NCBI RefSeq assembly: GCF_964355755.1
Contig: NC_092671.1
Location: 33,242,304 to 33,306,303, forward strand
Length of the DNA: 64,000 bases
Origin: Antedon mediterranea
Lineage: Eukaryota > Animalia > Echinodermata
Direction: 5' to 3'
Positions within the stretch are counted from its first letter, which is position 1. Every line of letters starts with the position of its first letter. Positions 1,597 to 45,022 of the stretch are shown piece after piece. A program made the translations under genes and the position numbers. The notes below the pieces were generated by a model. The model ran no database searches, had not been told where the DNA came from, and was given only the letters and a program-made list of their open reading frames with translations.

Positions 1597-1760
1597 TAAC
1601 GTTTATAATCAAATAAAATCCTCTAATAGATATGAAAAGTGGTAACAAAGAATTAGAAATGGTTGGTAAATTGTAGAACAGTCCGATGAATTCTACTACT
1701 AATTGTATAATTATGCTATAATTACTTACTATACTTACTATAATATACTTACTTTAACGT

Positions 1761-3512
1761 CTACAATGTTGAGAAGGTGATTAATGGACTTTCGTCTAAT
1801 AAATCTCCAGGTCCTGATTCCGTGCATCCATACATATTGAAATCTGTTTCCGAATTTATTGCTCCACCATTATTTAATTTGTTTAACTTGTCCCTGCGTA
1901 TTATGGGGGAAATCCCCGCTAAGTGGAAAATGTCCCATATCACTCCTATATTTAAATCTGGTGATAAAAATGCAATTTGTAATTACAGACCAATATCCCT
2001 TACCCATATATGTTCGAAACTGCTTGAAAAAATACTGTTTTCAAGTATATCTGATCACGTTGCTTATAATTGTCCAATTACTGAAGTCCAGCACGGTTTT
2101 TTTCCCTCCCGTTCCTGTGTTACCCAACATACCAACCTAACTCATTCCTGGGCATCTTCGCTAGATAAAACTAAAGCCCCCAGAATTGATGTTATCTTTC
2201 TCGACTACGCCAATGCGTTTGATAAACTGCCTCACCATATTATTTTAAATAAGCTGGCTAATCACTTCAATATCAGAGGCAATGTCTGGAAATGGATCAA
2301 GTCATTTCTATTGGGACGTTCCCAAAGAGTCTTGTATCAAGGATCCATTAGCCCTTCATCCCCAGTTACCTCTGGCATACCACAGGGCAGCGTACTTGGA
2401 CCCCTTATTTTTAACTTATTTATAAATGACCTTCCCTCATCTATTATTTCTCCACGTGCATTGTTTGCCGATGACACGATAATTTATAGAAATATATTTA
2501 CTGTAGACGATGAAGTTGTTCTTGATCAGGCTTTCCTCTTGGTGTGATCTAAATGAAATGGAGCTTAACTTAAATAAAACCAAGGCTCTCCACATTACAA
2601 GATCAAGGAAAGAGTATAGACCTGTTTATCGTATAAATGACTTGCCTATTAAATCCGTATCTAGTCATTGTCATCTGGGGGTCACGATTAATAGTGAACT
2701 TACTTGGGATGACCATGTAAACTTAATTATTTCTCGTTCAAATCGAATGTTGGGTTTTATTACTAGTATTGCAGGAGGATCATCCCCTTCAGCTATTTTC
2801 TCAGTCTATAAAGCTCTCATTGTCCCCATCCTTGAATATGGTGTCCCAGCGTGGTTGCCTCGAACCAAAAAACTTACGGAACGTATCGAGGCAGTCCAGC
2901 GAAGGGCTACTAGGCTTGTCCTTAAAAAAACAAGAGGTGAAATGGAATACGAGGAACGTCTCACTAAGCTAAATTGGCCTACACTATCTAATCGAAGAAA
3001 TTATCTTCTGTTATTCTTTGTTTGTAAATCACTTATTGGAACGGTTGATTGTAGTAGTGTTCGTCAATCTATAGTTTTTAATGGCCGTCACCTTGATACA
3101 CTTAAGTTCATTCATCACTATGCTCGAACCAATTGTCTTCATCATTCCGCTATTAACGTATTCCCTAGGTTGTGGGAAGAATTACCGGAAATGATTAACA
3201 ATTCTTTAATTTTAGACAGTTTTCCAACATTTTTAAATTCACTTAAATCACATGTTTTATATTGACTTTGTTGAATCGACTATAATGTATTTTATCCGTT
3301 TATTTTATATTGACACTGTTGATTCGTCTATTTGTTATTTAAATATTTTTATATAGTTTATTTTATATCATTGTTGTTACTTTGGGAGTACGGAACCTGA
3401 ACTCTTGTTATAGTGATTAGGTTCACTTTTAGGTTCCTGCCTACTCCCTTAGTTTCTGTGTTTTTGTTTGTTTGTATCTGGTTTTTGGCAATAAATAATA
3501 ATAATAATAATA
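1761..3512 (+). mobile_element. 5'-truncated CR1-group non-LTR retrotransposon (RT + C-terminus + 3'UTR)
   Basis: ORFs 1777..2547 and 2510..3265 join through one frameshift near 2520. Motifs KSPGPD, NYRPISLT, QHGF, FLDYANAFD, GIPQGSVLGP, LFADD, HLGVTI, RPILEYG-like. 3'UTR stem (gggagtacggaacct...aggttcctgcctactccc, ~3384-3448) and (AAT)n tail at ~3490-3510. Confidence 0.93.
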
Positions 3513-3737: not shown

Positions 3738-6700
3738 TAGATTAGGCCAATTATTAATAATAATTAATTATTATTCTAAAGTTGGCCGTTTATTCAGGTA
3801 AATACCATCCATGGTATAATTAATACATTATTTAGTTTTTAATTTAACTTCCTCGACATAGTGGGCCGTTTTGGCCTAAGAAGGAATCCGTTTTAGACGG
3901 CTTGCAACGGCAGAAGTATCTCAGGGTCCTAACGGGATACAGATAGCCTACAGTTAGTCCTGCCAGATTACTCAACAACTCGGCTATCGGAGTTCCACTC
4001 GATTTTAAACAAAAGGTCTTATCATCAGTTCTCCCGATTGAATTTTACACACTATTCCCCATAATATTCTCCGATTCTTTATGAATATATTAATTCGATG
4101 TTTATTAATTTTGCAGTATAATTTTTATTTTGGTAACTACTGTACCTTCACAAACGCGGTCCAAAAAATAAATAAATATATCGCCACCAACGGCCAATTA
4201 GTTGAAACCAAGAAGTTGCAAGTCATGAATCACCGTGAACCCGGAAATTACTACCTATCTACCGATGAAATCAGAAATTTTGCTTTAAAACCCTTTATAA
4301 TATCTCCCTAAGATAGAAATATGGAACAATATCGTAATAGTGTGAACTAATGTTATCAAATCTACGTTTCGCGGTACATCTGAGATAGATGAGGTAGAAG
4401 TATTTAAGGCTATTATTGTGCTTGCCTATCTCAGAATTAAGCATAATTTATTATAGATAAACACTAAAAAAGGCAAGGCAAGTTCCATATATTGATCATA
4501 ATTTATTCATAAAAGTAGCAAATAGTAGGTAACAAAAAGAAATTGCAAAATATCAAAACCATTAAAAAAATGTAAATAAAAAAAATGAACACACACAAAC
4601 AAAACGATTCCAAATGGTCTTTTGAACATAAAAACAACTTAACAAAAGTATTTCCGCAGTTGTTTTTCATTCGAATTATTTACACTTTTTAATTTTATTT
4701 ATATGTATCAAATAATTAATACACCACGAAAAACACCCAAATTAATATAGTTTGGCATTTTATGCTTTCCTCAGTGTTTGCGCGTATCATCTAATTCACA
4801 ATTTTGCTTTAGCGTCTTTTTTTTAAAGTCTGAACAGTCAAAAGTAAAGGTTAAAGTTCCATATCCAGTATTGCTTTCATTTTTAGCTTACATATATTTC
4901 TAAGTAAAGGGATAGTGTATAACAAGATCAATGGCCGTAAATAGTTTTGATTCTTGATACAATGTTTTATCAGAGTGCGCTTTTATTATACTTGCCCATG
5001 CAAAGTATATAACCACATTATTAAGGCAGAAAAAGACCGTGTGGTGCACGGGTTACTGCTAGTGTGTGGCTACTTTGAAATCAATCGACACTAAACGCTT
5101 ATATGGATACTATGCGGGGTAGAAGAAAATATGACACTAGAAATAATACATATAAAATGGTGTGGCTAGATCTTGCAAATACTGCTCTAAATCCTGCAGT
5201 TAGAGATGAACTAGAGAGAAACACTCTGTTGACATATAGAATAATCAGTAGTATCAAATAATGGTTGTATATTTTATTTTTGTGTGTTAAGTAGATATTT
5301 AGGCTACGTTAATTTCAATTTTAAAATGCACAAAAAGGAAAAGCAAATAAAGTTGACCCATATGTGCACAAGGTACATTTAAAATTATTTTATTTCAATG
5401 TTTAGCTAGAGATGTAAGTATGATTTGCAAAACTAGCGAGATTGCTAATAACTATTCATCCACTACATACATAATAATAATTACGATAAAAATAATGATA
5501 ATAATAGAAACAAAATATCTATTGTTTTCTTTGATGTTTTATTATTTGTTCATTTTACTATTTATATTATTTTTATGTCGTTTAGGACTTACATGGGCTA
5601 TCCTTGCATCTCATAGTCTGGTTTTTTTTCTGATTTTAATTGTATTATAGAAATTGTAGTTAAGTACAAAAAAAGAGATGTAGTCAAAAAAGAATTTTAA
5701 TAACAATGAAGGAAAATCTTAAAAACGATTGTAATAATGTATGATATATTTTTTATAGAATAACCTTTTAACGTGATTTTATGTATTCTTGTCCTTGTCA
5801 TGTTTATTGAGATGCAAATAAAACAAACCAAATCCCACACCGTTTACCACCAATCAAACAAACCTCTGTATAAAAGACTGTTTTACATAATTCAATAATA
5901 CCAGAACGACCCTCCTACTGTAAAATTCTCCTACATAAGAATACATGAGAAAAAAAATAAAGAATGATAACTTGAAAACTGTAGGCGCTATCGTGCTAAC
6001 AAACAAAAACAAAGATTACAAACAAAGTAAGTACTATACTCGGCAAAATTTTATTTTGCCAAGTAACAAACAAACACAAACATCCACAGCAAGACTTTGT
6101 ATTCTTGAAGTCAAATAAAATAGCAACTTTGAATGCAGTTGGAGATGCTGATACCAAAGAACTCAGTTAACAAATAACAATTTGTTAAGGATATTTTTCA
6201 AAACAATTATTTAAAGAAATACCGTAACTTACGTTTCATTTAAATAAATACCCTATTCGTATCAAAGATACATGTTATCTGCTACTATAGTCTTTACCAT
6301 CATAAAATGTCTGATTGGGATTTATGTCACATGCGCAGTTTAATTTCAGTAATTTATTTATTTTTTAAACATTCAATTTATAGTGTGTACAATGTATTGA
6401 AGCCATCCCACAGCTTGTTTAATGTAAATTGCAAATAGCCTTGGTATGGTTCCTGCCAAAAAAAAGTAGTTAGGAATGTAGTTGTAGGAAAAAATGTTGC
6501 CAATATGTGGTAAGTACAAGTACTGTCAACTGTCAAAATACTTAATACAAGTTGATGTATAACGTTCATAAATGTTCTATATATTTATTATTTCCATGAA
6601 ATTTTTTTTAATGAGGAAACTTAATAATCAATTTCAACAGGACAAAATATCTAAAAAGTCGTTTTTCTTCAGCTTTTACATTTTTTTAAAGATATGTTAT

Positions 6701-8686
6701 TTGAGCATTATTGTGACATCTTATGACGTCATAAGTACGTCATATGGTAATTTGAATATGGCTATGAATAAGTGGAAAGTTTAATATCACATTTATATCT
6801 ACTCGTTATCCAATTGCGTGGTTAAAAAACTAACCTTTGAGATACGGAGCTTCAAAATGGAAAATATCGGCCATTTTGAAAATATGCTAATTGACCCACC
6901 ACTTTCTGATAAATAATAGACAAAATACAAATTGTTCTAGGTGTAACCATACTTGTACTGGACTAACATGTCAATAGAGCAATCCTACTGCGCATACGGA
7001 TGGGTAAGTTACCATTTTGATATTTATTCACGAAATTATGTCTTTGAAGAAGCGAATGCTTTTATACAGCTTACATAAGGGTTTAAAGATATTGTCCCAC
7101 TGAAATTATTATTGGTTACATTTTTTTAAGTAGGCCATTTTAATTTCACATAATATTTATTCACTTTCACCAAAAATTGCATCGAAAAAATAAATTATTT
7201 ACTGGACAAAACTGTAATTGAAAGCAGAAATGATAAAAATTTGCTGCCAGTTGAATTTAATTTTGTTATTTTATAAGTGAAAAAGGATTTTTTTTTATAC
7301 GGAAGTAATTATTAATGTCTGTCTGATTTTAGTGATCTTCATTTTTCCTATTTTTGGAGGACAATATTTTTCATACATTAGTGAATTATCCATCTATGAT
7401 ATACCACTGAAGACTGGAATTAATTATTAATAATTACTTTCAATATTTCCTGGATATATAAAAGGCATTACTCTTCTGTTTATCTCGCATACAGTATGTT
7501 TGCTGAACATTTCTATGTCCAAAGATGTGCTCGCACAGTTTATTTGCAAGTAAATTCAGGAAGCCCGTTCTGCTACCGTTGTTATTATAATTCATTGAAT
7601 TGGTAAATAGGTTTACGTGACAATGAGTGTGATTTAGTAGATTCGTTTGAGAGGCAAGGCGGTTTTGAAATTTCATAATGGGTCGAGTGTGCTTCACAGG
7701 ATGGCGATTTGTGCGGAATCTTACTCGCCTCATAGGCTTGCTTGTTCTAATTCCGAATAATGGATTTACGTGGCATTTTAAATAAATAATATCAATATTT
7801 GTAGTAACTTTATTCCAAATCATTAAAAACAGATAACAACTATAAAGATACAAAATGGAAAGAAAAGAGAAACCGCATTTTATATTCCTTCCCTGGGTTT
7901 ATAGCCTCTCTACCTGAATACGAACACGAACATTATACAATAATGACAACTGTCAAAAGTACGTTTATTATTGTAATTTTGTTACCTATTTTATATATTT
8001 TAATTATTATATTTTTAATGTAAAAAAAACAAATGTAAATGTGGTTTTAAAAACTTCCAAATTAATCATTTTATATATATACAGCAACTTTTTTTTATTA
8101 CAACTACTTTTAACGTTGTAACATATAAATGTGAGGAAAATATGCTTTAAAATATGATAATAAAAGTGGGACGAACCAAAAAAAGACAACAAAAAAAGAA
8201 AAAAGGAAAGAGCAGTCGCAACCAAGTGGTATCATTTATCATACTTTTGATTTAAAAAAACTTAATGGAATGACTAGCTCAGTCAACAAAAAAAAACCCC
8301 ATCGAAAATGTTGAAACTCCGGAAAATAATGTAAAATGTCAGGGAGACATCCAAACGATCAGATGAAAACCATAGTGCTATTCTAAAGTTGCTTGAAATA
8401 AAAAGGAGGATCATCGTACAATCTTTAAAAGCCTTCTCACCATGGTGTTCACATTGTCCCTAATACAGTATACCGCTAAACGTTTGTAAACGTCTCCATG
8501 CTCTGCTCGAGCAGACAAGGATTTGGAAGATGAAAACGTAAATACGCATGCGTATAAGCTGGCGCTTTCGATTCAAGCGAACAAATTCGCCGAGTGGAAA
8601 ATCAGCTTTACTCGCAATCGCGGAGCCAAACTGTACACACCGCTCTTACTGCATGAACGCGTCAGTTCGGACCTCAGGTGGCACTC

Positions 8687-8695
8687 TATTTAAAA
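8687..8695 (+). promoter_or_regulatory. Candidate TATA box of the PAN-Link gene
   Basis: TATTTAAAA 47 nt upstream of the ATG at 8734, at the end of a CpG-richer segment (8440-8700). Confidence 0.35.
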
Positions 8696-8733
8696 TACCC
8701 AGTATAACGTTTCGCAACTGAGAACTGAGCATT

Positions 8734-8794
8734 ATGTCGATTTTCTACTTATACTGTTTTTATATATTTTGGGGATTTTTTACAAATTGTTTTG
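8734..8794 (+). CDS. PAN-Link protein exon 1 (signal peptide MSIFYLYCFYIFWGFFTNCFG)
   Basis: ATG at 8734, hydrophobic/aromatic ~20-aa peptide, strong donor G|GTGAGT at 8795; phase 1 matches exon 2. Confidence 0.75.
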
Positions 8795-9039
8795 GTGAGT
8801 AGGCCTACACTGAATTAAATATTTAACGTGAATAATTTAAAATTATTATTAAAATGCACCTATATATGATAACACGTTATAGCTTAAAAATAGACTCAAT
8901 AATAATATAGGCCTATGGGCAATAGCATTTTAGTAATAGTACACTTTTAGTTACTTTAATGAGGAAAGATGTTCATACAAGATTATTTATTAAATTATGA
9001 AAATTAAGTCCAAAATAAAAAAAAAATGATTAGATTATT

Positions 9040-9330
9040 CTGATATCAATTCTAATGTTATCTGTGGTTATTTTGAGATCATCTGAAATTATCATGTTGT
9101 TATTCCCAGATAATACTCTGAAATCATTCTTTTATTATCCTGAGCTTATTCTGAATTTTTTTCCGAAATCATTCTGAAATTTTTCTGAAAATCATATGAG
9201 CTTATTCTGATGTTTTTCTGATATCTTTCGGGTTTATTCTGAGACTATTCTAGAAAATCAAATGAGATTATACTGAAATTATTCTAACGAATCAGAGAGA
9301 TTATTATTCTGAGATAATATCGTTTTGATA
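9040..9330. repeat. Degenerate short-period repeat (ATTCTGA-containing) in intron 1
   Basis: Many recurrences of ttattctga / attctgaa / tctgag. Confidence 0.55.
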
Positions 9331-9368
9331 ATATACATTTTTATATATAATGTTTATATAATATGTAG

Positions 9369-9637
9369 GAACAACTCAATACTCATGGAGAACCAATCGA
9401 ATGGAACTTAAAAAGAAAAATTACGCTTTAGTTGGACACATGAGGTATAGATTGTACGCACCGACTATTACGCGTTGCGCACATCTGTGTTTGAGCACAA
9501 TTAAGAAAGAGGGAGTGTGCAAATCTGTCAACTACGATATTTACAACAAAACATGTGATTTGAACGATGATGTGCAATTAGGAAATGAAAATGATTTGAT
9601 AGCAACACCTTTTGTTAACTACTACGAAATAACAATC
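9369..9637 (+). CDS. PAN-Link protein exon 2 (PAN/Apple domain)
   Basis: Acceptor tgtag| at 9368; in frame with ORF 9401; YALVGH...RCAHLCL...VCKSVNY...TCDLN is the PAN four-cysteine pattern; donor C|GTAAGT at 9638, phase 0. Confidence 0.85.
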
Positions 9638-10447
9638 GTAAGTACACCAGATTTCTAACTGACTTGCAATAGGCAATTAGATATTACCTCATGACAGCTA
9701 CATAATCGGGTGTGGTAATATGTCTTTTCAATATATTTGTTTGCGCCCGAACTAACCATAAGAGGAATTTTCCGAATGTCGAGCTCTCTCGTGTTGTATT
9801 TTTAAACATTTATGCAACTACATCCAACAGCGATATCGCCAATTACAGATGCCGTATATTGAATTTTTTTTATTGATCACTTTATTTCAAAATAAATATT
9901 CCATTATTCTAAAAACAAAACAAAATACAAATCGGAAAATCACACTAAAATAGGATTTTTCCCACTTAGTGAAAAAATTTGAATATCGTAACCAGATAGG
10001 TCGTAGTACACCTAACAAGATCATTTTCAACTGTTAATCTAAAATCATAGACTTGCGTACATGCTCATAGAAAGAGGAATTGTTATTAGCACTACAGTAT
10101 ATCACAAATACATAACAAAAAGTACAAAATTAAATAATAGTACTAATATTAATATCATTATTTTCCTCCATTTAATAAAATAAAAAAAACAGCCTGAGTA
10201 GATCATTGTAAATCTATGTTTTACTATTTACTATAAAAACAAATCATATTGATTCAAATCCTTCAAACAATGACATATTTTCTTCATTGCTTTTTATGTT
10301 TTATTGCTCCATGTCATGTTCTTTGATACATTTTTGCTAGTAAGTGCGTGAATTACCCACAGGAGGATCTAAATAGTGTGAAATCATTAAGGCGTCATGG
10401 CCAATAGGACCCTGGTAAATCTTTAAATAAAATTGAAACAGCCTAAG

Positions 10448-11213
10448 AAACAAGGCCAACAGCCATTAAGTCGCGTGCTACAATGCATAGTGATACCGGA
10501 CCGACAAACAGACCGACAGACCGACAGACAGAAAGACCGACCGACCGACATAGTGAACTATACTGACCGAAATTACTGAACATGTTTAAAAATGTTGAAA
10601 TGTTTAAAAACATTTATTTTTTTAAAATTTACACGTGCGTAGCCTGTCACTTTCGACGTGCTCGTATAACGTAATTTCGAGTTGAAAAGTAAGTCAAGAA
10701 AACAGAAATCGGGCAAAAAGAGTGCGCAATAACATTTAACTCATGGCAATTTTGTAAACGCTTAAAATTGCCTGAAATGTACTCTTATTTCATCGAAAAT
10801 AAATTTTGAAAATGTTAAGCGCGCGTACGCATGCGTTACATGCGCTACGCACGTAATTGTACTGCCATATGATGATTTATGCCCTGAAATTTATGAGTAC
10901 CAAATTTTATTTAATTGTGATTCATGGTTGTGAAGATATGATTACAAACGTGATTTCGTTAAATCGTGCGTAGACCGCGTAATTTTTTATTGCGCACCGT
11001 GAAAACATAACCACATTGATTCCTGGCCATAAGGAATATACTGTGAAAAATTGACCTAGCTAGATTAAACTGATATCAAGATAAGGTCAGAAAGCGATAA
11101 AACGCATAGCGATACCGGACCGACAGACAGACAGACCGACAGACAGACGGACAGACAGACAGACCGACCGACCGACATAGTGAACTATAGAGTCGCTTCC
11201 ACGCGACTAAAAA
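10448..11213 (-). mobile_element. DINE-1/HINE-like non-autonomous Helentron element in intron 2
   Basis: On the minus strand: TTTT + subTIR TAGTCGCGTG with partial hairpin (agtcgc-ttccac-gcgact, 11191-11208), (GTCT/GTCG)n microsatellite, second subTIR CACGCGACT, short terminal hairpin, TT. The core (10707-11080) is shared with 29400-29790. Confidence 0.7.
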
Positions 11214-11356
11214 TTATAACGATTTTTGTAATCTATGTTTTTTAACTGGTTCAAGTTTTTAAAATATAAATTATATTGATTCACAACCAAACAATGAAAT
11301 GATTTTTCTTTGTCGTCTTTTTCTTTTTCATTACTCCCACTAATTATTCTTAATAG

Positions 11357-12268
11357 GTTCTTCGACATAACAAACTGTTGATTGTGAGAAAGAACGTGAA
11401 TTACTCACAAGCTCTAAAAGAGTGCGAACTCCTTGAGGCGTCACTGTCAAGTTACGAGACTTTGGCAACTGTGGCAAATGATGGTGATCTGCCTTGTGTT
11501 CCTGGTTGGCTTGCAAATGGTGAGATACTGTTCACAGACATCGATGATTCTTGTGAACTAAAACCTGTATCCAATAGGTATAATATATATCCTGAGCGAT
11601 CGTCAGTTTTTACTGCATGTTACTGTATCATAGCAGGTGTTTTAGCAAATTCCAATGTTTCTTCAATCACACTCTTGAGGTTAACTGGAGATGCATATGG
11701 GAAGCTGACATACGAAAGGGCAATATCTCGCTGTTTCGAAGAGTTCGGAGGTCATCTTTCAGGACTTTCAGAAGTAATAGAAGTTGGTCACTCTGGAGGC
11801 AATATCTGTGACTTCTACGTTGAATCATGGCTTGCTAACTGGTTAATGTGGACGCCATTGCCAGTGCCAATTGAATGTTGGTTAGAACTTGAGAAAGGGA
11901 ATAGAATCTGGATTCCTGAACACAACGGCACCACTGCCCATGCGCTGTGTACACAATCACCCGCAGGATACCAGGAACCGGATCACTGGCCTACACATCG
12001 GGTTGTCAACATTCGTGGATTAGAACTGTATTCATTGACCTTTTCTGAAGCACTCTACCGATGCAATAGCGTTGGGGGTAACCTGGCAACATACGCACAG
12101 CTTGATACCGCTAGACAAAGCGGTTATGATATGTGCCGCATAGGTTGGATAAGTGATGGCCGCAAAGTATTACCTTCTACATGGGCGCGTCCAAACTGTG
12201 GAAATATCGTTGGCATTGCAATATTTTACCATAACGGAAAACAGTCTGGTTTTTGTCACATCCCATAG
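11357..12268 (+). CDS. PAN-Link protein exon 3 (three tandem Link/Xlink modules)
   Basis: Pyrimidine tract + taatag| at 11356, phase 0, in frame with ORF 11378..12268. The third module YSLTFSEALYRCNSVGGNLATYAQLDTARQSGYDMCRIGWISDG...PSTWARPNCG...GFC matches the Link consensus. Two more diverged modules retain four Cys and GWL/SWL. Confidence 0.9.
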   Translation, partial: VLRHNKLLIVRKNVNYSQALKECELLEASLSSYETLATVANDGDLPCVPGWLANGEILFTDIDDSCELKPVSNRYNIYPERSSVFTACYCIIAGVLANSNVSSITLLRLTGDAYGKLTYERAISRCFEEFGGHLSGLSEVIEVGHSGGNICDFYVESWLANWLMWTPLPVPIECWLELEKGNRIWIPEHNGTTAHALCTQSPAGYQEPDHWPTHRVVNIRGLELYSLTFSEALYRCNSVGGNLATYAQLDTARQSGYDMCRIGWISDGRKVLPSTWARPNCGNIVGIAIFYHNGKQSGFCHIP

Positions 12269-12543: not shown

Positions 12544-13029
12544 TAACACATTGAGATAGATGAGGAAGGTATCCAAGGCGGAGATTTGTCCCAAAGTTTG
12601 TCCATTAACTCGCCTATGTCAATTTAGAATTTACCATAAATTATAGATTTAAATGTATCGACAGGTCCGGGAAATACAAGACACTCTGTCTATAAAAAAA
12701 ATTAGAAATAAACAAAATAGGGAATATAATATTTAAAATAAAAGTACAATTTTATATCCAACCGAACACATTCAATCCAATATAATTTAAGTATGTTATT
12801 TATAATAATAAAAAGTCTAACTGTATGCTGTTTTGTCCCACTATTCGTAGAATCTATGGGACTCCTAAAACAGTATTGGGATTAGTTTACGTACTTAGGC
12901 CATATTTTAACTTCGAATCTAAGAGGCGAGGCAGATATAAAACGCCAATATAGATCCCAATGTATTAGAGGTAATGTTTTATGTAGGAAATTTTCATACT
13001 GCTCTAAATCAATCAATTTTTTTTTTTTC

Positions 13030-13442
13030 AGATCATATTGTATTAACATGTACTGTTCTCCTTTATGGTCTAATCATTTTTTAAAAGATATCAACCGACT
13101 TAAAGTTTGTTATAATGATGCTTTCCGGAGGTTGTTGGGATAACCCAGATTTGTTAGTGCGAGGATTTGTTTGTGGAAAACAATATTCCATCATTTTATG
13201 AATATTTGAGGATTTCGACTTACCGATTTCTTACAAGAATAATGAAAAGCGAAAACAGAATGTTAATTTGTATATATAAATATTTGTTGATGGATTCAAA
13301 CATGTACTACAAATGGAGAGAGGCATTATATACCGATAGATAAAAGTTTTGGTCCTCTCTCCTTCATCTTTTTTTTGTAATGTATTATACCATATTATAT
13401 GGACAATAAATAAAAGTTGAATTGAATTGAAATTGAATTGAA
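13030..13442 (+). mobile_element. 3' end of a CR1/L2-group LINE
   Basis: Reads RSYCINMYCSPLWSNH...RLKVCYNDAFRRLLG*PRFVSA...NNIPSF, a typical LINE ORF2 C-terminus; ends in AATAAA + (TTGAA)n tail. Confidence 0.65.
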
Positions 13443-21299: not shown

Positions 21300-23945
21300 T
21301 ATAATTCAGTTATATGCGATTACAAATAATAACATTTTCACATAAACATCTATTTACATCGTTCCTGTATTCAATAATATATAAAATGTTAATTTTCCTT
21401 TTGAAATTATACAAGTTATTACTCATTCTAATTTCGTTACTAATATTGTTCCATATTCTTGGCTCTTCATAAGATATTCCCCTTTGTCCCATGTTTGTGT
21501 TCTTTTTTGGTGATTTACAAATTATTTTTGTTTCTCAATACATTTTTTATATAGGTCATAAACGGTAAGGGAGGTAGTTTTAATAAATAGTTGTAGAAAT
21601 GGATGGTAGTAGTTTGTTCAATATAATTCTTAAAGTCTTTTTTTTAAGTACATGGATACGTTTCATGTTTTTGGCATCAAACTATTATACAATATGATAT
21701 ATTTGGTAAGATCAGTGAGTTGTATATACAGTAGTTAATAAGACTTGATAGGGAAGGATTTTTAGTTTATTTAGGGAACCAATCAGAATAGAAATTTTGG
21801 TGGCTATGTCATTTACATGATACGAGAACGTCAGGAACTGGTCCAGTTCGATACCATGAAATCGTATGCTTTCTACAGGTTCTAGTACATCATCGTTTAT
21901 TTTGAGATTGTCTGATCGTATACTACCCTCTCATAGATCTTAGATAGACATGGTAAGATAGATATCGGTTTGTAATGTTAACCCCATCTTTATTAACCTT
22001 TTTATACACAGGCACAGTTTTTGCTATTTTTAATTGATCTGGAAATATACCACTCTCAAGTGATTTGTTAACAATATGAGCAATTGGTTTTGAAAGTAAG
22101 TCATAATTACTTACAATATAATTATTTTATCATTATATAATCATGACCACATGACTTATTCTTATCTAATTTACTTATATATTTCATAATAATCGTGTTT
22201 AGTGACAGCCGTGAAGAACATCGAGCTTAACGTATTTGTTTTCATGTACATTCTGTGGCTGTTCTGACTACTTCCAATATTTCTTGCCATTTCATAACCA
22301 TATTAACAAAGTATGTATTGAAAGCATTTGCTATGTCAGTAGACGTGCTATATGTTTGAGTGTACATCTTAATATGATTTGGAATATTAATTTTTCTCTT
22401 TCTACATAATATTTTATTTATTACTTTCCAAATATTTTTTACATTATTACCGTTTCTTTTAATTTCATTGTCATAATATTCTATTTTCCTATTTCTAATA
22501 TTTGTTGTTAGACAGTTTTGAAATCGGTTGTATTTTAATTTATTATTGTTTGTTGGCTTCGTTTTGTATCTTTTATACAATTTTTGTTTTGTTATTATAG
22601 ATTTTTGTATACCATTAGTCATCCACGGTGATCTTAACTTATCTGTTTTTATTCTAACTTGTTTATGTGGGAAACGCCTGTCTATTGTAGCAGTTAATTT
22701 ATTTGCAAATGAATGGTATGCCTCATTAGCATTTGAATAGGTCAGGGTATCTTCCCATTGCTCATTCGGGAGTTCTGTTCTAAAAGGTTGTGAACACTAT
22801 ATTGTCTTTTGTCGTTTAAAAATATATTTTTGTTTTTCTGTTTTTTTAAATATTTCTGTCTTGTTTATACAAAATACTGGAAAGTGATCTGATAAGTCTG
22901 ATATTAAAATGCTGGATTTTATTGATTGGGTGGATATAGAGTTAGTAAACATGTTGTCTAGTATTGTAGCTGATTGGTTAGTGATACTTGTTGGTTTGTT
23001 TATGTGCGGAATGAATGAGTTGGATAGTAGGCTGTCAACATGTATTCTGACATTGATGTTTGTTTCATATGAGTTTAGATCCCCCATTAGGTAAGTTTCT
23101 TTCCCTTCATTTGTAAGTTTATGTTAGATTTCATAGATTTGTGTGTTACACAGTTTTAAAGTAGTTTCTACATTGTTTTATCTATAAATGACCCCACATA
23201 TAATAGACATGGTGACTGTGTAGACTTCGACAAAGACACATTCAGCACCAGTAAGTAATTGATTTTTCAGATAGCCAGGTTTCAGTCAATCCTATTATTG
23301 TATTATTGTATTCAGAGTTAATATATAATTGGTAATGTGATCAAATTTATTTACCAAACTACGGCAATTCAGTGAAAACAATGATAGGTTTACATGGCTT
23401 GGGTTTGTGTTTTTATTTGCTGTTCTGAATTGTTTAATGTCGTAGTACTTATTATCTAGAGTAATAATACAATCTTGCAGTTCATCTTCTTTATCAAAAG
23501 TTCAAAATATAAATTAATAATTGAATAGATAAATTATTTAATGTTGGTAATGATAATAAACTAAAAGAGTGAAGCACGTACAATTGTACGATATGTAATA
23601 ATAGTAATAAATAATAATAGTTTCTGCTTATAAAATACATCTATAAATGTGCAGTATACAATTAATTGTGTCTGATATTTTTTTTCAGCTCGTCAGCTAG
23701 TGATGTGTCTGGTGTGTCCGTTTGAGTTTCCCGCTGGCCTAAGTTTCCAGGGGTAACGGCTTCACTTAACTGGACGATTTTTTGTTCCTTTTTTTTAGAC
23801 ATCATTTAAAGTTTCAAGGTAAGTTGCTTTTCTTATATTAACTTCAAACTGTACAAGATTACTTAGTTTGAAAGCAAAAATACTGACTTTTTAGGTGAGT
23901 TCTATAAGAGCGAAATCAGGATTGTCTACTGTTGTTCGCGCATGC
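21300..23945 (-). mobile_element. Old CR1/L2-group LINE: APE endonuclease + partial RT, internally deleted
   Basis: ORF 22797..23087 MGDLN...FIPHINKPT.IT..SATILDNMFTN...ISDLSDHFPVF (APE endonuclease); 22242..22622 (PW)MTNGIQKSI...WKVINKIL...IANAFNTYF; C-terminal YNSLILPNISYC and RIWNNIS (21310..21492). Many stops and frameshifts; possible 5'UTR/ORF1 remnant at 23680-23945. Confidence 0.85.
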
Positions 23946-24995
23946 TCACATCACGTAAAGGAAATGAAGATAAATAGGGTACTATGGAAATACTTAAAAA
24001 ATATGCAATAATTATGGACAGATCAACGACCCATATGACGGGGTGTTCCACGAAGAGTGTGTGATGGCCTTTCGTACCTTCTCATGAGGCACACAAGTAA
24101 TCCAAACAGAAATTCATTCAGAAACATAATAAATATAAACAAAAATGTGCACGGTATTGTTGACTGCTGGTTAATTTTACGCTGCATTCTGTCAATTTAC
24201 ATATAGGCCTATTTCTTCAAACCCCGGACTTATAACGTTATTATACGATGACATGCGATCTACATTTTAATTTAGTGGCAGAAAAAACATTTAGTATGAA
24301 GATAAGAGTGTTACCCGAAAAACACCCTGATAAATGTATTCAATCTATTGGGGTGTTAGTCTCTGGGTATTGAGTTTGGGAGGCCATTATTCATTTGTAA
24401 GAACCAACCTGCTTCTTTTTAAAGTGGGGGTATTGACTATTTCTTATCCGGTCTTTTGTAAGTTTTGTCTTTGAAATTCAAACTGCCAAGAATATTATTC
24501 ATTATAACAATATTACTGTTTGTCGTTGGACTATAATTCACCTCTACACTCTCTCTAATTTTGATTATTTAAGTATGTTTGCCGTACATCGTAGATTTTC
24601 CCGTTCTTGTTCGAAGTTTTCTGCTATGTAAGTACTGTTGGTCTCGATAACGTCTTAAAGTACTTTTTAAGGTCAATTCTAGTCAAGTGATAGGGTTTTT
24701 GTACAATTAAGTTCAGGGGGGTTTTGTATTTATTATTTATTTTATCTATAGGATTGTGTGTGTTTGGTTTTTGCAGGTTTTTTGACAAGTTTACTTTTCT
24801 CTCCCTAGCTCCGTTACCAAGTGTATAATAGAGATCGTCTGTATCAAGACATTTTTGGGCCAGTGGTTTTTGTTTAATGCCATATTTTCTTCTTAATGTA
24901 AGTTTTTCTTTTCTTATTTTTTAGTATTTGTATTTTTAGTAGTTTCTCGTTGTAGTAGTAGCTTCTAACTTTTCCGTTCAATTTTTTCCGTACAG

Positions 24996-26830
24996 ATGGA
25001 TTGTTCTCGTATGCCCATAAGAATTCTGGACGTTGTGGTAGATGAGTTTATCAATTACGAAGTCTGTACACAATTTCTGAAAGAGGGAGTGCCAGATTCA
25101 ACCTTCTGGTACTTACTTACAAAAACAGTTGAACATCAGAGGATGATAATTGAAAGTTTACCCAACTCCTCTTCCCAGTCGACCGGCCTTAGAGCAAGTG
25201 CGATTCAAGCCATTCTGAATCAGAATCGTTCCTTCATTGCTAAATATTTGGGGAGAGAAGATACTGAATTACCCCATGTTAATGTTTTGGACTCTTCAGT
25301 GAATCCTGGATGATCACGACAATCTTAGTAGTAGAGTATCCTTTTGATTCCGATGAATGATTCATAAATTAAGGAAGCGATTCAGGCCATCCTGAATCTG
25401 AATCCTAAAGTTGTTGCTGTCGAAGAGGAAGAATATTCTGATTTACCCGATGTTGATGTTTTTGGAACATCTTTTGAACTCTTCAATTAACCTGGATGAT
25501 CACGAAAATTACGATGCTTCCATTGATACTGACAAAGTCATCATTGAACCCTTGGAGACAGCATTTGCAGATGTATGGAAGCTGTTGATGATTTGGATAA
25601 CATTCTTCAAGTTGGTGGAAACAACAAGAAAATAAAACGAATGAATGATGAAGAATAAGTTGAAGTTCTTTCTTTCTCTAATGATGAGCAAGAAGAAGAA
25701 GAAGCAGAATAGGTACCTATTAACGGGTTGTGTAATATTGTCCGATTGATCGATCGCTTATAATCACCGGTTTAATGCTGTTATAAACGATTACAGTATT
25801 AGTTTTCGAAATTTGAATAACGTTCGTATTATAGAAATTCTTCCTACATTTTATCGAATTTTTGATCATATTATCTAATTTTTGTGAAGATGTAGGCGAT
25901 AATGATTATTTAAGAATAGTTATCCAAGCCGAAGGTTTAGACTTACCAATATCAATTCCGTTTAGTCGTAGGGAACATCTTACAGCCGATGTAATTTTCA
26001 ATGCAATTTTAAAAGTTTTGCAATCCAAATCAGATGGTTTTGTAAATGGAAAGTTAAAATTCAATGTAATACGTATGAGGATGTCCATAGGAGGTACCTT
26101 TGTTTGAAAGGGTATCGATAAAGAATTTAATAAGTCACGTTGCATAATTAGAATTATTAGTAATAATGACGATGAGAACATGTGCTGTTCTAAGGCTATT
26201 GTTACAGGTATTTCCTCTATCGAAGACCATGTCAATAATAAGTCCTGATGGGATAACATTAGACGCGGTCGTGACCAACAGCTTAGTTTAGTTTGTTTGT
26301 TAACAAAAGCCGGTGTTAATGCGGGTATTTGTGGTATCGAGGAATTGAAAAAAATTCAAGCTGTTCTACCAAACTATCAAATTTAATAGTAATCTCAAAG
26401 GATATAACGTAAACAAAGCTCATACTTGTAAATATACGTGTAAACTCTGTAAATTTAATGAATGCTTAGGCCTACCGGCAAAGGAAACGGAGGTTTCTGT
26501 TGATTGCAGTGATTGCAATAGAACTTTAAAAACGCGAGTTGTTTTGATTACCATATTAAAGGCGAAACATCAACTTGTAAGAAAATTAAAACTTGTAAGA
26601 CCTGTAATCGGGTGATAAGAAAAAATCACAAATGCGAACAATATTTTTGCCGAGTTTGCAATGTGTTTGCATCTTACGATCGTAAATGTTGCATGCAAAA
26701 AATCGTTGAAAAAAAAAACTAACGATAAAAAATTAAAAAACGAAATCAAATGAAAAATTCAGTAGCCAAGTATTTCTTTTTTGACTTTGAATGCACACCG
26801 GAAACTGGTGAACACAAGCCTTATCTCCCC
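24996..26830 (+). pseudogene. Decayed Polinton/Maverick (adintovirus-like) protein-primed DNA polymerase B, N-terminal part
   Basis: Frameshifted blocks: LRIVIQAEGLDLPISIPF...AILKVLQS, CIIRIISNNDDENMCCSKAIVTG, WDNIRRGR, CGIEELKKIQAVLPNYQI, Cys-rich CKLC/CSDCNR/CKTC/HKCEQYFCRVC, then KYFFFDFECTPETGEHKP (ExoI motif, 26768-26821). Truncated after this point. Confidence 0.8.
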
Positions 26831-28719: not shown

Positions 28720-30110
28720 CTGCGCATATAGGCCTATGGCAATATTATCGCATAATTATTGAATTTTAATAGATATTTTGGGCCATTTTTTCGAGAAAAA
28801 AATCCCTGTACTATTATAGTACAGGGAATTTTTTAAAGAAATGGCTGCATTTCGACACTTTTATTTTTTGCCATAACTAGTTACTATGGCTCTATAATAT
28901 GTTTATAACACAATGTATGCGCATATATGGCAATATTATCCCATAATTATTGAATTTTAAAAAGTAAATATTTTGGCAATTTTAGGGGAAAATACCAGTA
29001 CTATAGTATAGGGAAATTTTCTAAAAATGGTCAAATTCGACTCTTTCATTTTTTGCCATAACTAGTTACCGTACTATGGCTCAATAATATGTTTATAACA
29101 CAATATATGCGCATATATGGCAATATTGTCGCATAATTATTGAATTTTAACAAGGCCATATACATGGCTACAGTCGCGTGCTCAAATTTGAGTTAGTGTT
29201 TACCGACCGACCAACCATCTGACCAACCGACCGACATAGTGAGGTGTAGAGTAGAGTAAAAATACTACAGTGGATGCTGCAATTTGCTTTAAAGGAGAAG
29301 GTGTTAGATGAAAAAGGAAGAGGTGGAAACAAGGGCTGGAAAGAGAAAACCCTACATGGAGATTCTTGATGATATTATTAAAGAAAGGTTGTAAAACAAA
29401 AATCGGGCAAAAAGAGTGCACATTAAGGTTTAAGCGCGTGCACAAATCTGTGACTCATGGCAATTTTTTAAACGCTTAAAATTGCCTGAAACGTATTCTA
29501 ATTAATTCATCGAAAATAAAATTTGACAATTTTAATCGCGCGTACGCATGCGTTATATGCGCTACGCACGTAATTGTATTACCATATGATGAATTATGAC
29601 TTGAAAATTTACCAAATTTTATTTAATTGTGATTCATGCTTGTGAAGATATGATTACAAACGTGATTTCGTAAAATCGTGCGTAGACCGCGTAATTTTTG
29701 ATTGCGCACCATGATAACATAACCACATCGATTCCTGACAATAAGGAATATACTCTGACAAATTGACTTAGCTAGATGAAACTGATATCAAGACAAGGCC
29801 ATATACACGTTAGTGTTTACCTACCGACCGACCAACCCACCCACATAGTGAGCTGTTGAGTAAGGAATGATATTTTGACCATTTTTCGAAAAATGTCGAC
29901 CCTTTTATTTTTTTACATAACTAGTTACTAAGGGTATATAAGATGATGTTAACACAATGTGCATATTTAGCAATATTATTGCATAATTATTGAATTTTAA
30001 AACATGGAAATTTTTGCCATTTTTCCAGAAAAAAAATCCTTGTAGGCCCCAAATTTTCCAAAAATTGACAAATTGTGACATTTTTATTTTTGGACATACC
30101 TAGTTACTAT
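28720..30110. repeat. ~190-bp tandem repeat array interrupted by a HINE-like insertion
   Basis: Recurrent gcgcatatatggcaatattat(c/t)gcataattattgaattttaa and ttttgccataactagttact; internal hairpin ccctgtactattatagtacaggg. Confidence 0.75.
29148..29860 (-). mobile_element. DINE-1/HINE-like element, second copy
   Basis: aacaaggccatatacatggctacagtcgcgtg end, (CCGA)n microsatellite, core 29400-29790 homologous to 10707-11080. Confidence 0.7.
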
Positions 30111-30129: not shown

Positions 30130-31580
30130 ATTAGAAAGTTCGACAGGTGTAATAAGTGCGACAGCAATTTTTTTTAAATGCGACAAGCTATCACGAAGTG
30201 CGACAAGCTATTACAAAGTGCGACAGGTTATTACAAAGTGCGACAGGTTATTAAAAAGTGCGACAAGCTATTGCAAAGTGCGACAGGTTATTACAAAGTG
30301 CGACAAGCTATTACAAAATGCAACAGGTTATTACAAAGTGCGACAAGCTATTAAAAAAGTGCGACAGGTTATTACAAAGTGCGACAAGCTATTACAAAGT
30401 GCGACAGGTTATTACAAAGTGCGACAAGCCATTACAAAGTGCGACAAGCTATTACAAAGTGCGACAAGTTATTACTAAGTGCGACAAGCTATTAAAAAGT
30501 GCGACAGGTTATTACAAAGTGCGACAAGCTATTACAAAGTGCGACAAGCTATTACAAAGTGCGAAAGGTTATTACAAAGTGCGACAGGGTATTACAAAGT
30601 GCGACAGGGTATTACAAAGTGCGACAGGTTATTACAAAGTGCGACAAGCTATTACAAAGTGCGAAAGGTTATTACAAAGTGCGACAGGTTATTACAAAGT
30701 GCGACAAGCTATTACAAAGTGCGACAAGCTATTACAAAGTGCGACAGGTTATTACAAAGTGCGACAAGCTATTAAAAAGTGCGACAAGCTATTACAAAGT
30801 GCGACAGGTTATTACAAAGTGCGACAAGCTATTACAAAGTGCGACAGGTTATTAAAAAGTGCGACAAGCTATTACAAAGTGCGACAAGCTATTACAAAGT
30901 GCGACAGGTTATTACAAAGTGCGACAAGCTATTACAAAGTGCGACAGGTTATTACAAAGTGCGACAAGCTATTACAAAGTGCGACAGGTTATTACAAAGT
31001 GCGACAAGCTATTACAAAGTGCGACAGGTTATTACAAACTGCGACAGGTTTTTACACAAAGTGCGACAGGTTAGTACAAAGTGCGACAGGTTATTACAAA
31101 GTGCGACAAGCTATTACAAAGTGCGACAGGTTATTACAAACTGCGACAGGTTTTTACACAAAGTGCGACAGGTTAGTACAAAGTGCGACAGGTTATTACA
31201 AAGTGCGACAAGCTATTACAAAGTGCGACAGGTTATTACAAAGTGTGACAAGCTATTACAAAGTGCGACAAGCTATTAAAAAGTGCGACAGGCTATTACA
31301 AAGTGCAAAAAGCTATTACAAAGTGCGACAGGCTATTACAAAATGCGACAAGCTATTACAAAGTGCGACATTTGTGTTACGAAGTTCGACAGGTGTTAGA
31401 AAGTGCGACACCAATTTAAAAAAAATTCCACAAGTTATTACAAAATCCGATACACTTCTGTTACGATGTTCGATAGCTGGTGTTACAAAGTGCTACAGCA
31501 ATTACTCCAAAGTTATAAGGAAGTGTTATAAAGTGCGACAATAATTACGATAAAGTAAGTTATTACAAAGTGCGACACTT
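30130..31580. repeat. 20-bp minisatellite AAGTGCGACA(AGC/GGT)TATTACA, roughly 60 well-conserved copies with degenerate edges
   Basis: Direct inspection; it generates the spurious three-frame ORFs at 30218-31544. Confidence 0.97.
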
Positions 31581-37208: not shown

Positions 37209-37498
37209 TCAATTATCATTTTTTTCTTTTTCATGATTTTTATTTTTTGGAACCTCATTCAGGTCGAATACTTCAGCGTGTAGGGGTGGAAACTGCATCT
37301 CTGGGGTTTTAACTTTGAGTTCCATTAATCGACGCGTGTGCTCTGGACCGATCTGTCGGAGCATTGGAAGAGTTGTCACCAGTTGGCCAAACATGCTCTT
37401 ATCCTCAGGATGATTAATTAGCAGTTCGTACTGGAGAGACCGTAGTAAATTTCCCTGCAGTTTCTTGATTGGTTCAATCTCTTTTAGGAACGGACGAT
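37209..37498 (-). CDS. NR1 nuclear receptor, last coding exon (LBD H9-H12)
   Basis: Acceptor ttcttcaacag| (AG = 37500-37499), phase 1: DRPFLKEIEPIKKLQGNLLRSLQYELLINHPEDKSMFGQLVTTLPMLRQIGPEHTRRL...FPPLHAEVFDL...stop. Confidence 0.93.
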
Positions 37499-39547
37499 CT
37501 GTTGAAGAGAAATAAAGATGTCAATATTAATGTGTTATGTGTGTCTGTGCAAGTAACCTACCAACATTTTTTTAATAGGCATTCAATTTTGTTATTTAAA
37601 AAAAAAATCTCCACTGAATAGCTCACACTCCCAACAAGTTTACTCATGGTCAGTTCAAAATTCAAAATATGCCCTTTTATAACAGGTTGAGACACCCATG
37701 TGTTAAGTTTGTTAACACACAGCAGTCAGGCAATAATTTATTCATTATTAGTATGCAGATGTCTGACTTGTGGCATTCAAATGCAGGTTAAAAAAAAAGA
37801 AAAGTAGGAGGAAACCTCAATTTGAAAACTTCAAAACAATGTGACCCTTGACCTGATAAACAGCACCCTATTTCATGTCAGTTTTTAGACCCTAAATGTA
37901 TTTTACAAAATATCAGTTGATTTTGATTTAGTGGTGTTTTTAAGTTTATCTGAATCAGAATATCACCAATATGGAACACTCTAAGCCAAGTTTTATGTGG
38001 AACAGCAATGTAAAATATTGCTTAATTATGCACATGCATTTCCATAGGCCCACAAAGAAAATGTAGTATTTATGTCTAAATACACTAACAATGTAGTCCC
38101 TAATAGAGGTACAAAAAATGTGCTCAGTGGCACTTACTAGAACAGATCCACCATTTATACATTCCCACTTGTAATGACAACATTAATCATATAAATATGA
38201 TCTTTAAAGGTTGGTTCCATTTCTTAGTTAAACAGGTGCTAATCTGTAGACTTAACTAAACCTTTGGTCACTATTGTTTTGGTACAGACCTCCCAAAGTC
38301 TGGCACAGATATTCTGGTATTTATAATTCATCCCGCACCTCTATTTATTTTTGTTTCTTGATTATCCATGATATGTAAAAAACATCCAGATAATGTATAA
38401 ATATATTATTTATCTACTAATAGGCTTCTAGTTCTCTTGTTTGCTTTTAATTTAATTTTGTTACTAGTTCAATATACACAAAAGAAAGTGAGAGGGAGGT
38501 AGTGCAGACATTCATTCAAATATTAAATAACAATAGTTGTAGTAGTAACACAGTTGAGACAAAAAAGCAAAAAGTTGAGTTTGATGGAAGTGATGACAAA
38601 CATGATAATCAGTGAAGCGTTTTAAAGAAAGTAAATGATTAGCTAAAGTAGAATGACGATGATGTGAATTGGCCTACCAAACGACAAAGCAATCTTCAGT
38701 TGAACTACTTATACCGACCAAGTGACCGACAAAAACCAGCCAACTACAGAAGGCAAGATTTACTAGGTCAGCATATAGTCCAAAACAAGTTTAGCAATCA
38801 ATTAAACAACTCGCACACATTATGTATACGAGGAACATGATGATATTTTCATGAGAAGGGCTGTTATCAATGCCTCTAGGGGACACTTGATTGTAGTTTT
38901 CTGATTGCTGTGTCAGAGTGCCTTTAGTAAATCTGATTTGCATCGTTTTACCACTGGAGTCAATTTGATCTTCATGTGAGATGTGATAATTGTTATAATA
39001 GGGAGTTGACAACAACAACAGCCAAAAGATGGAGAATAGGAGTCGCAAATGTAGATGAAAAGAAATTGTGTTAAGATTATTGTTAAACTATAATTATTTA
39101 AATGATGGTAATGATGATAATGATGACAATAATAATAATAAAACATTTAAATATGCATGCAAATAATGCATCCCATTAGGTCCACAAGATCTTTCATATC
39201 AAACAATAATTTACTTCAGAATCAATAAATCAAGTAGTAGTTAATTTGCCATATAATTTATATCTCTCTAAATTCCCTGCCATCAACCGCGCATCAATTA
39301 TCAATATTATAACACAACTGATTGTATCCTTTTAATTTGATTGTTCAATTATGCATCACATGTCATTTTGAATTACCTGTATCTAAGGAAAAAGTGATAT
39401 CTAATGGTGTAATAAATGCACTCTAATGCATGTTCAGTTCCCTGTAAACATTTTGATAATTTTTTAGTCTCGTTACAAAATTGTTCAACTCGTGAAATAT
39501 TCTCTCCATTCAACTCATAAACATTAATTATTTGAATACTATCTCAC

Positions 39548-43000: not shown

Positions 43001-43271
43001 GCAATTTACAAAGTACAACACATATACTGCAATAACGTACATTATCGTAATATGATTCAATGTTTCAACATTAATTATGAAGTTACAAAGTACTTTTTTA
43101 CTTTATAAGCAATTTAAAAAAAATCTGAACTTCCACCATTAAAGTATACTAATAGGGTTACAATTTTGTTTTTTTTCTGCAGAAAATGGAATTGATTTTA
43201 TTTATTTTTCATATTTTGGAGGAAAAATCTTTAACCAAGACATAAAAATATACTAATACACAAATACTTAC

Positions 43272-44683: not shown

Positions 44684-45022
44684 CTACAATAAAGCAAATG
44701 AATAAATGTTAATATTATAATTAGTAATTAATTGAACCATTTAGGGATATATAATTCAGTATATTTGTGACATGATAAACTTTATTTAAAATAAAATCAT
44801 TAAGGATCATGTCAAAATTATTCTACTGCAGTCACTGCAGCAACTACATTTCGGTTAATCTTTAACTTATTTATGTAGTTTATTTATCAGCTTTTTGGGT
44901 TAAATCATATACACCATCTATATCAGTTACCGACTCATAAATCTCTACATACTATATAAACTAAAACCATACATTATTGCAGTAAAAAAAATGTAGGTAT
45001 GCTGTACTGCAGTACCTGCAGT

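What the first reader, a model, noticed from the sequence alone, without database searches (positions are those of the whole stretch)
8734..12268. Secreted protein with signal peptide + PAN/Apple + three Link (Xlink) modules in an invertebrate-looking genome
Seen: three exons with canonical GT-AG sites and matching phases (61 + 269 + 912 = 1242 nt, 413 aa), no transmembrane segment, and N-glycosylation sequons (NKT, NYS, NVS, NGT). The ORF track only shows two unlinked fragments. Established: Link modules are the hyaluronan-binding domains of chordate hyaladherins (TSG-6, CD44, HAPLN, lecticans), where they are paired with Ig, CUB, EGF or C-lectin domains; PAN domains mediate protein or glycan binding. 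Inference: I know of no described PAN-Link-Link-Link protein, so this may be an independent domain-shuffling product acting as a multivalent matrix or immune glycan-binding protein.
Basis: partly seen in the sequence, partly recalled or inferred. Interest (0 to 1): 0.85.

Follow-up and report, generated by a model that had tools for sequence, protein, structure and literature searches.

The report
Feather-star PAN plus triple-Link protein
This feather-star gene encodes a likely secreted protein that joins one PAN domain to three Link modules (the hyaluronan-binding unit of vertebrate cartilage proteins); it belongs to a fast-diverging crinoid family that we did not find described, and it likely binds some sugar chain other than hyaluronan.

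Summary
The three exons are as described: GT-AG sites, open frame, 413 aa. PAN and Link modules 1 and 3 pass Pfam's cut-offs. Module 2 misses Pfam but is a divergent Link module by profile comparison (97.7%; shuffles at most 1.3%). The host is a feather star of or near Antedon. The gene is not unique: 12 predicted RefSeq proteins of Antedon and Anneissia are collinear relatives, 8 of them full-length, 26-34% identical to this copy. They support the exon joining; spliced reads could not be tested. Link modules are not chordate-only, and a coral entry named 'Apple domain-containing protein' carries one Link match (PMC12383584, Table S1). This copy has lost most known hyaluronan contacts, while module 3 of some paralogues keeps 6 of 8. 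No hyaluronan synthase was found in echinoderms (PMC10381214). Best reading: a secreted lectin-like recognition protein for a non-hyaluronan glycan; the ligand is untested. Ten literature searches showed no description of this family. Verdict: new variant of a known kind.

The parts
8687..8695 (+). TATA-like sequence 39-47 nt before the ATG (possible core promoter)
   Evidence: seen in the sequence; motif recalled, function untested
8734..8794 (+). Exon 1, probable signal peptide (residues 1-21), phase-1 donor GTGAGT
   Evidence: nearest of 4 candidate ATG..GT phase-1 exons found in 4000-9300; 7 of 8 full-length homologues begin with a hydrophobic leader
8795..9368 (+). Intron 1, GT-AG, phase 1
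9369..9637 (+). Exon 2, PAN domain with four cysteines (C57, C61, C71, C83), net charge +3
   Evidence: Pfam PAN_1 E 7e-07; the four cysteines are invariant in 8 of 8 full-length homologues; charge
9638..11356 (+). Intron 2, GT-AG, phase 0; holds a ~400-nt interspersed repeat
11357..11632 (+). Exon 3, Link module 1 (residues 111-202), acidic, with family-specific invariant W161, L162, E166, F169, R184, N186
   Evidence: Pfam Xlink E 1.2e-07; HHalign 98.7%; invariants
11663..11959 (+). Exon 3, Link module 2 (residues 213-311), divergent, below Pfam detection in this copy
   Evidence: no Pfam hit; HHalign 97.7% against shuffles at most 1.3%; model residues 105-200 match a C-type-lectin-fold chain at Z 7.0
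11990..12268 (+). Exon 3, Link module 3 (residues 322-413), the most canonical, net charge +4, then the stop codon
   Evidence: Pfam Xlink E 9.6e-17; model matches TSG-6 Link at Z 16.6, rmsd 1.5 A over 89 residues
12707..12812 (+). Three AATAAA hexamers (12707, 12737, 12807), candidate polyadenylation signals
   Evidence: AT-rich DNA, so chance matches are likely; untested

Best explanation
An intact three-exon feather-star gene encodes a likely secreted PAN-Link-Link-Link protein of a fast-diverging crinoid family, which likely works as a lectin-like recognition protein that binds a sugar chain other than hyaluronan. Shown: exons, open frame, domains, host group, family. Predicted: three Link/C-type-lectin-fold modules in one compact unit. 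Inferred: module 3 (and perhaps the basic PAN) carries the glycan site; the acidic modules 1 and 2 act as scaffold or bind other ligands; paralogues differ in specificity; the ligands are chondroitin-, heparan- or microbial-type polysaccharides met in coelomic fluid, mucus or at the body surface.
For: Domains. Model: pLDDT 85.8, pTM 0.81; module 3 matches TSG-6 at Z 16.6 and aggrecan at Z 15.7. The family has 12 RefSeq members; the 7 Antedon ones lie on 6 different contigs. Best Anneissia-to-Antedon matches are 32-61% identical against 89% for the neighbouring nuclear receptor, a pace more typical of recognition proteins than of structural matrix proteins (inference). This copy keeps 30 of 35 positions invariant in 8 homologues, against 22% identity at variable columns. 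Against hyaluronan: module 3 keeps 3 of 8 aggrecan Link-1 contacts (Y164, C199, R217; lost R163, D200, Y211) and 1 of 6 directly aligned TSG-6 contacts (residues from PMC12155565 and PMC3937638). No hyaluronan synthase was found in echinoderms (PMC10381214, passage). Ciona Link binds other glycosaminoglycans (as stated in PMC12383584). An apple-domain protein is a skin-mucus lectin in a fish (PMC3219417, abstract).
Against: No ligand, tissue or expression data. The exact protein is absent from the protein collection (best hit among collinear relatives 38%) although the neighbouring gene matches A. mediterranea at 97-99.8%. Loss of contacts could mean no sugar binding at all. Sequence is a poor guide: aggrecan G2 keeps 15 of 18 contacts and does not bind hyaluronan (PMC12155565). 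One paper states that hyaluronic acid is present in a sea-urchin ligament (PMC4365025, passage). Only 2 of 5 models exceeded pLDDT 80, so module packing is uncertain. Fast divergence does not by itself show an immune role.
Confidence: 0.5

Rival explanations
1. A structural matrix cross-linker, working like vertebrate link protein (HAPLN): it bridges chondroitin/dermatan sulfate proteoglycans in crinoid ligament or skeleton.
For: Secreted, small, tandem Link modules behind one N-terminal domain, as in HAPLN. Echinoderms have chondroitin sulfate synthases but lack lecticans (PMC10381214, passages). Chondroitin/dermatan sulfate bridges collagen fibrils in an urchin ligament (PMC4365025, passage).
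Against: Many divergent, dispersed paralogues. The model aligns to aggrecan G1 over one module only (91 residues; rmsd 17 A over the tandem), so no aggrecan-like continuous groove is predicted. Modules 1 and 2 are acidic. No collinear relative from other echinoderm classes among the best 150 hits, of which 30 were looked up by name.
Confidence: 0.2
2. The Link modules have lost sugar binding and the protein binds other proteins, as many C-type-lectin-like and PAN domains do.
For: Modules 1 and 2 lack the Tyr211/Arg217 equivalents in all 11 family rows and module 1 has its own invariant motif; several paralogues have lost cysteines in module 3.
Against: Module 3 of P0015 and P0023 keeps 6 of 8 aggrecan Link-1 contacts, which is hard to explain without a sugar ligand; this copy keeps Y164, C199 and R217.
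Confidence: 0.17
3. This particular copy is silent or starting to decay; only its paralogues are functional.
For: Not in the protein collection although the host matches an annotated species closely; longest-diverged module 2 (end branch 1.6); lies among retroelement fragments.
Against: No stop or frameshift in 413 codons; canonical splice sites; all 16 domain cysteines present; 30 of 35 invariant sites kept, within the range of the other members (30 of 30-39).
Confidence: 0.08
4. A true hyaluronan-binding protein, recognising host or microbial hyaluronan.
For: Best structural matches are all hyaluronan binders; paralogues keep most contacts; hyaluronic acid is claimed for an urchin ligament (PMC4365025).
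Against: This copy lacks the TSG-6 basic residues K11 and K63 and Tyr59, and aggrecan R163, D200, Y211, R326; no synthase found in echinoderms (PMC10381214).
Confidence: 0.05

Closest known systems
Uncharacterized crinoid RefSeq proteins (e.g. XP_033121159.1, XP_033127072.1, XP_033121404.1 of Anneissia japonica; XP_071963937.1, XP_071953296.1, XP_071947443.1 of Antedon mediterranea)
   Same: Same order of leader, four-cysteine PAN and three Link modules, about 410 aa, collinear over up to 400 residues.
   Different: Only 26-34% identical to this copy; automatic predictions with no function, several misnamed 'aggrecan/versican core protein-like'.
Vertebrate link proteins (HAPLN1-4) and lectican G1 domains (aggrecan, PDB 9dff)
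   Same: Secreted; one N-terminal domain followed by tandem Link modules; module 3 matches aggrecan at E 4.6e-20, Z 15.7.
   Different: PAN instead of Ig; three modules instead of two; no crinoid module falls within the Ig-Link-Link clades in the quick tree; tandem geometry not matched; hyaluronan contacts mostly lost.
TSG-6 Link module (PDB 1o7b, 2pf5), CD44, LYVE-1
   Same: Link fold; rmsd 1.5 A over 89 residues to TSG-6.
   Different: No CUB domain, no transmembrane segment; 1 of 6 directly aligned TSG-6 contacts kept.
Non-vertebrate Link proteins (Ciona, amphioxus, Mytilus XLINK1/2, anthozoans; coral A0A3M6TTD9 'Apple domain-containing protein')
   Same: Secreted Link proteins in animals with little or no hyaluronan; the coral entry suggests PAN plus one Link.
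   Different: Other architectures and one Link module in the coral entry; the 2025 survey's table lists no Anneissia or Antedon entry and, for the echinoderm genera searched, only three giant proteins.
PAN + C-type-lectin proteins of molluscs and cnidarians; fish apple-domain lectin FHL
   Same: PAN joined to a C-type-lectin-fold domain (Atlas clusters scoring 0.84 and lower, leads only); apple domains can act as lectins (PMC3219417, abstract).
   Different: These carry classical C-type lectin or apple-only domains, not Link modules.

Membership tests
Link module superfamily (Pfam PF00193) | Profile match above the gathering score, modules 1 and 3 | tested here: met
   32.3 and 61.5 bits, cut-off 27
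Link module superfamily (Pfam PF00193) | Profile match above the gathering score, module 2 of this copy | tested here: not met
   No Pfam hit at E up to 10; own generic HMM only 4.2 bits. Family-level HHalign 97.7% places it as a divergent Link module
Link module superfamily (Pfam PF00193) | Four cysteines per module and the Link (short C-type-lectin) fold | tested here: met
   C133/157/176/200, C236/261/284/308, C346/370/391/410; module 3 Z 16.6 to TSG-6. Modules 1 and 2 were listed only against C-type-lectin-fold chains (Z 8.8-9.1 and 7.0) and were not folded alone
Hyaladherins (hyaluronan-binding Link proteins) | Conserved hyaluronan-contact residues | tested here: not met
   Module 3: 3 of 8 aggrecan Link-1 contacts, 3 of 8 Link-2 contacts, 1 of 6 TSG-6 contacts; modules 1 and 2 keep little beyond the cysteine
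Hyaladherins (hyaluronan-binding Link proteins) | Measured hyaluronan binding | not testable with these tools
   Needs a binding assay
HAPLN / lecticans | Ig V-set domain before two Link modules; in lecticans a long glycosaminoglycan region and EGF, C-lectin and Sushi domains | tested here: not met
   Exon 2 is PAN; the protein ends after module 3
PAN domain (PF00024) | Profile match and core cysteines | tested here: met
   29.4 bits, cut-off 21.4; 4 of 8 full-length homologues also pass, 8 of 8 keep the four cysteines
Crinoid PAN-Link3 family (defined here) | Collinear match across PAN and three modules; each module groups with its positional counterparts | tested here: met
   BLASTP residues 45-413 to P0013, E 5e-49; modules 1 and 2 in clades with SH-aLRT 98 and 99; modules 2 and 3 together 94 (quick tree)
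Secreted protein | Cleavable signal peptide | tested here: inconclusive
   Aromatic-rich hydrophobic leader, best 8-residue hydropathy 1.64; homologues have leaders; no dedicated predictor was available

The most novel reading that the evidence does not exclude
Feather stars carry an undescribed radiation of secreted PAN-Link3 lectins in which paralogues vary the Link sugar groove: some keep a nearly complete hyaluronan-type groove in an animal group with no known hyaluronan synthase, others (this copy) have rebuilt it. They would form a glycan-recognition repertoire against chondroitin-like or microbial capsule polysaccharides and a living model for what Link modules bound before vertebrate hyaluronan.
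Probability: 0.25. Interest if true: 0.72.

Novelty: new variant of a known kind. Interest (0 to 1): 0.45.

Why it matters
What Link modules bound before hyaluronan matrices is an open question, and surveys so far cover chordates, mussels and anthozoans. A small, soluble crinoid family with natural variation in the binding groove makes that question testable on glycan arrays. It also corrects automatic 'aggrecan-like' names in crinoid genomes. The interest is moderate: both domains are well known, Link modules outside chordates are reported, relatives already sit in RefSeq, and no function is shown.

Tried and rejected
Word-seeded homologue search with exon 3: 0 of 974 candidates; with the family alignment only 5 already known members. 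Single-sequence fold failed (pLDDT 30.8). No whole genome is held, so copy number in this assembly and the intron positions of paralogues were not examined. No second copy in the window. Other first exons: three candidates at 4081 and 5945 rejected as distant or not leader-like. PAN exon against PDB sequences: no match. ESM Atlas: best scores 0.88 (Link clusters) and 0.84 (PAN + C-lectin clusters), leads only. PAN was not seen in 60 non-family Link-search proteins scanned (57 of the 140 non-family hits plus 3 cluster members; for 6 only the top five families were shown). The careful tree and the one-clade test did not finish, so a single origin of the three modules, a donor, or horizontal transfer is not claimed. 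Supplements of the Anneissia genome paper gave 0 hits for Link terms in 4 files; its skeletal proteome table may not be among them. Kawashima 2009 is not held; Yoneda 2010 was not read. Earlier scan findings by sequence and by words: nothing. No complex prediction was run.

Full report
OBSERVATION. The three exons lie at the stated coordinates with GT-AG ends and give 413 residues with no internal stop and four sequons. Intron 1 is phase 1 and intron 2 phase 0; all three Link modules sit in one 912-nt exon. Exon 2 matches Pfam PAN_1 (E 7e-07) and exon 3 matches Xlink (E 8e-27). Scanned in thirds, modules 1 and 3 pass the cut-off and module 2 gives no hit. Module 2 has four cysteines in Link spacing, and the family profile of module 2 matches a generic Link profile at 97.7% (E 2e-12), against at most 1.3% for 30 column shuffles. 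The generic profile was built from 400 modules of non-family hits; one source protein later proved to be an unrelated Antedon Link protein (P0102). There is no transmembrane stretch. The leader is aromatic-rich and was judged without a dedicated predictor.

HOST. A nuclear-receptor gene (NR1D-like) at 37.2-44.7 kb on the minus strand matches Antedon mediterranea at 99.8%, 96.9% and 99.0% over three exon frames and Anneissia japonica at 83-96%. The host is a feather star of or very near Antedon.

FAMILY. A full HMMER search with exon 3 found 493 proteins at E up to 0.001 and listed 150. Ten of the 150 match as one long collinear stretch; all ten are RefSeq predictions from Anneissia (4) or Antedon (6), and their clusters add two more. 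Eight of the 12 are full length (378-445 aa): 8 of 8 keep the four PAN cysteines, 4 of 8 pass Pfam PAN_1, 7 of 8 have a hydrophobic leader. The spliced protein aligns to P0013 over residues 45-413 across the second junction (E 5e-49), and a profile of the eight homologues picks exons 2 and 3 out of 2880 window peptides. This is the main support for the joining; spliced reads were not obtained. The window copy is 26-34% identical to every member scored and is itself absent from the collection, so it appears to be an unannotated, separate subfamily. It keeps 30 of 35 sites invariant in the eight homologues, which argues for selection on the protein. The seven Antedon members lie on six contigs. 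Best Anneissia-to-Antedon matches are 32-61% identical, against 89% for the nuclear receptor. In a quick tree of 103 modules (91 columns, many forks open; 400 generic modules thinned to 71, one short family module left out), crinoid modules 1 and 2 each form a clade (98, 99), modules 2 and 3 group together (94), and none nests among the Ig-Link-Link proteins. The three-module layout is therefore older than the split of the two genera (inference). The one-clade test did not finish.

STRUCTURE. With a 16-row alignment exon 3 folded at pLDDT 85.8, pTM 0.81; the five models ranged 61-86. Module 3 matches TSG-6 (Z 16.6, rmsd 1.5 A, 89 residues), aggrecan, LYVE-1 and CD44. Modules 1 and 2 were listed against C-type-lectin-fold chains (Z up to 9.1 and 7.0) and were not folded alone. 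The match to aggrecan G1 covers one module, with rmsd 17 A over the tandem, so the model gives no aggrecan-like continuous groove. PAN was not in the model.

LIGAND. Contacts were taken from PMC12155565 (passages) and PMC3937638 (passages) and mapped by counting along the printed alignments and a profile alignment. Module 3 of this copy keeps Y164, C199 and R217 of eight aggrecan Link-1 contacts, has Phe for Y233, and has lost R163, D200 and Y211; of the TSG-6 contacts aligned directly (K11, Y12, H45, Y59, K63, F70) only Y12 is kept. Module 3 of P0015 and P0023 keeps 6 of 8. Modules 1 and 2 keep little beyond the cysteine; module 1 is net acidic in 11 of 11 rows, while PAN (+3) and module 3 (+4) of this copy are basic. 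A review found no hyaluronan synthase in echinoderms (PMC10381214, passage), but another paper states hyaluronic acid is present in an urchin ligament (PMC4365025, passage). Aggrecan G2 keeps 15 of 18 contacts and does not bind (PMC12155565), so sequence cannot settle the ligand.

MECHANISM. Most likely (0.5) a secreted lectin-like recognition protein: module 3, perhaps with PAN, binds a chondroitin-, heparan- or microbial-type polysaccharide, and paralogues differ in specificity. This rests on fold, groove variation and the pace of divergence; it is inferred, not shown. Rivals: matrix cross-linker (0.2), protein-binding scaffold (0.17), silent copy (0.08), true hyaluronan binder (0.05).

COMPARISON WITH WHAT IS KNOWN. 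It is a member of the Link superfamily and works perhaps like non-vertebrate Link proteins; it is not a HAPLN, lectican or TSG-6. PMC12383584 (abstract, parts 1-2 of 6, passages, term searches of Table S1) reports Link proteins in anthozoans, bivalves and an annelid, states that Ciona Link binds other glycosaminoglycans, and its table has no Anneissia or Antedon row and three giant echinoderm proteins among the genera searched. The same table lists a 237-aa coral 'Apple domain-containing protein' with one Xlink match, so PAN plus Link probably has a precedent; its sequence was not examined. Here Link proteins also came from a hemichordate, amphioxus and unionid mussels. PMC3219417 (abstract) describes an apple-domain skin-mucus lectin. 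PMC7351957 (passages, 4 supplement files) and PMC3002383 (passages) did not mention such proteins.

NOVELTY. Searches (and 45, 50, 69 on ligands) listed no paper on a PAN-Link protein or on crinoid Link proteins; the library lacks most subscription journals, one search showed 30 of 4,800 and 15 of 705 papers. The architecture is undescribed as far as searched but already predicted in RefSeq. New variant of a known kind; interest 0.45.

Noticed in passing
window 37212-44684 (-): NR1D/Rev-erb-like nuclear receptor exons, 97-99.8% identical to Antedon mediterranea; used to place the host. Its 5' exons were not matched in the window at the threshold used.
   Followed up: yes
P0102 (XP_071945244.1, Antedon mediterranea): A second crinoid Link family: coiled coil plus Link, twice, with a similar layout in amphioxus P0115 and P0118.
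   Followed up: partly
P0160 (XP_033120134.1, Anneissia japonica): Family member without PAN and with extra partial Link modules (five stretches): module rearrangement or a misassembly.
   Followed up: partly
P0011, P0016, P0099, P0112: Uncharacterized multi-Link proteins (up to 10 modules) in caecilian, lungfish, bichir and sturgeon; loosely nearest to crinoid module 1 in the quick tree (support 91, then 65).
   Followed up: partly
window 1744-3265 (+), 12886-13343 (+), 22242-23123 (-): LINE-type retroelement remains; the first has a Pfam RVT_1 hit (E 3e-25), the other two are judged by eye and had no meaningful hit.
   Followed up: partly
window 10699-11089 and 29393-29801: A ~400-nt interspersed repeat in intron 2 with an 85% copy at 29.4 kb; a ~90-nt GACA-rich piece occurs twice in the intron.
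   Followed up: no
window 30179-31410: 20-bp tandem array, 61 copies; it explains the 429-aa open frame and its spurious Pfam hits.
   Followed up: yes
window 49010-50417: Compound tandem array of 83-bp and 199-bp units; the 199-bp copies are 100% identical, so recent or an assembly effect.
   Followed up: no
window 24969-25313 (+): 114-aa open frame with a protein-like composition and only a weak UVSSA_N hit (E 0.2); may be an exon of an unrecognised gene.
   Followed up: no
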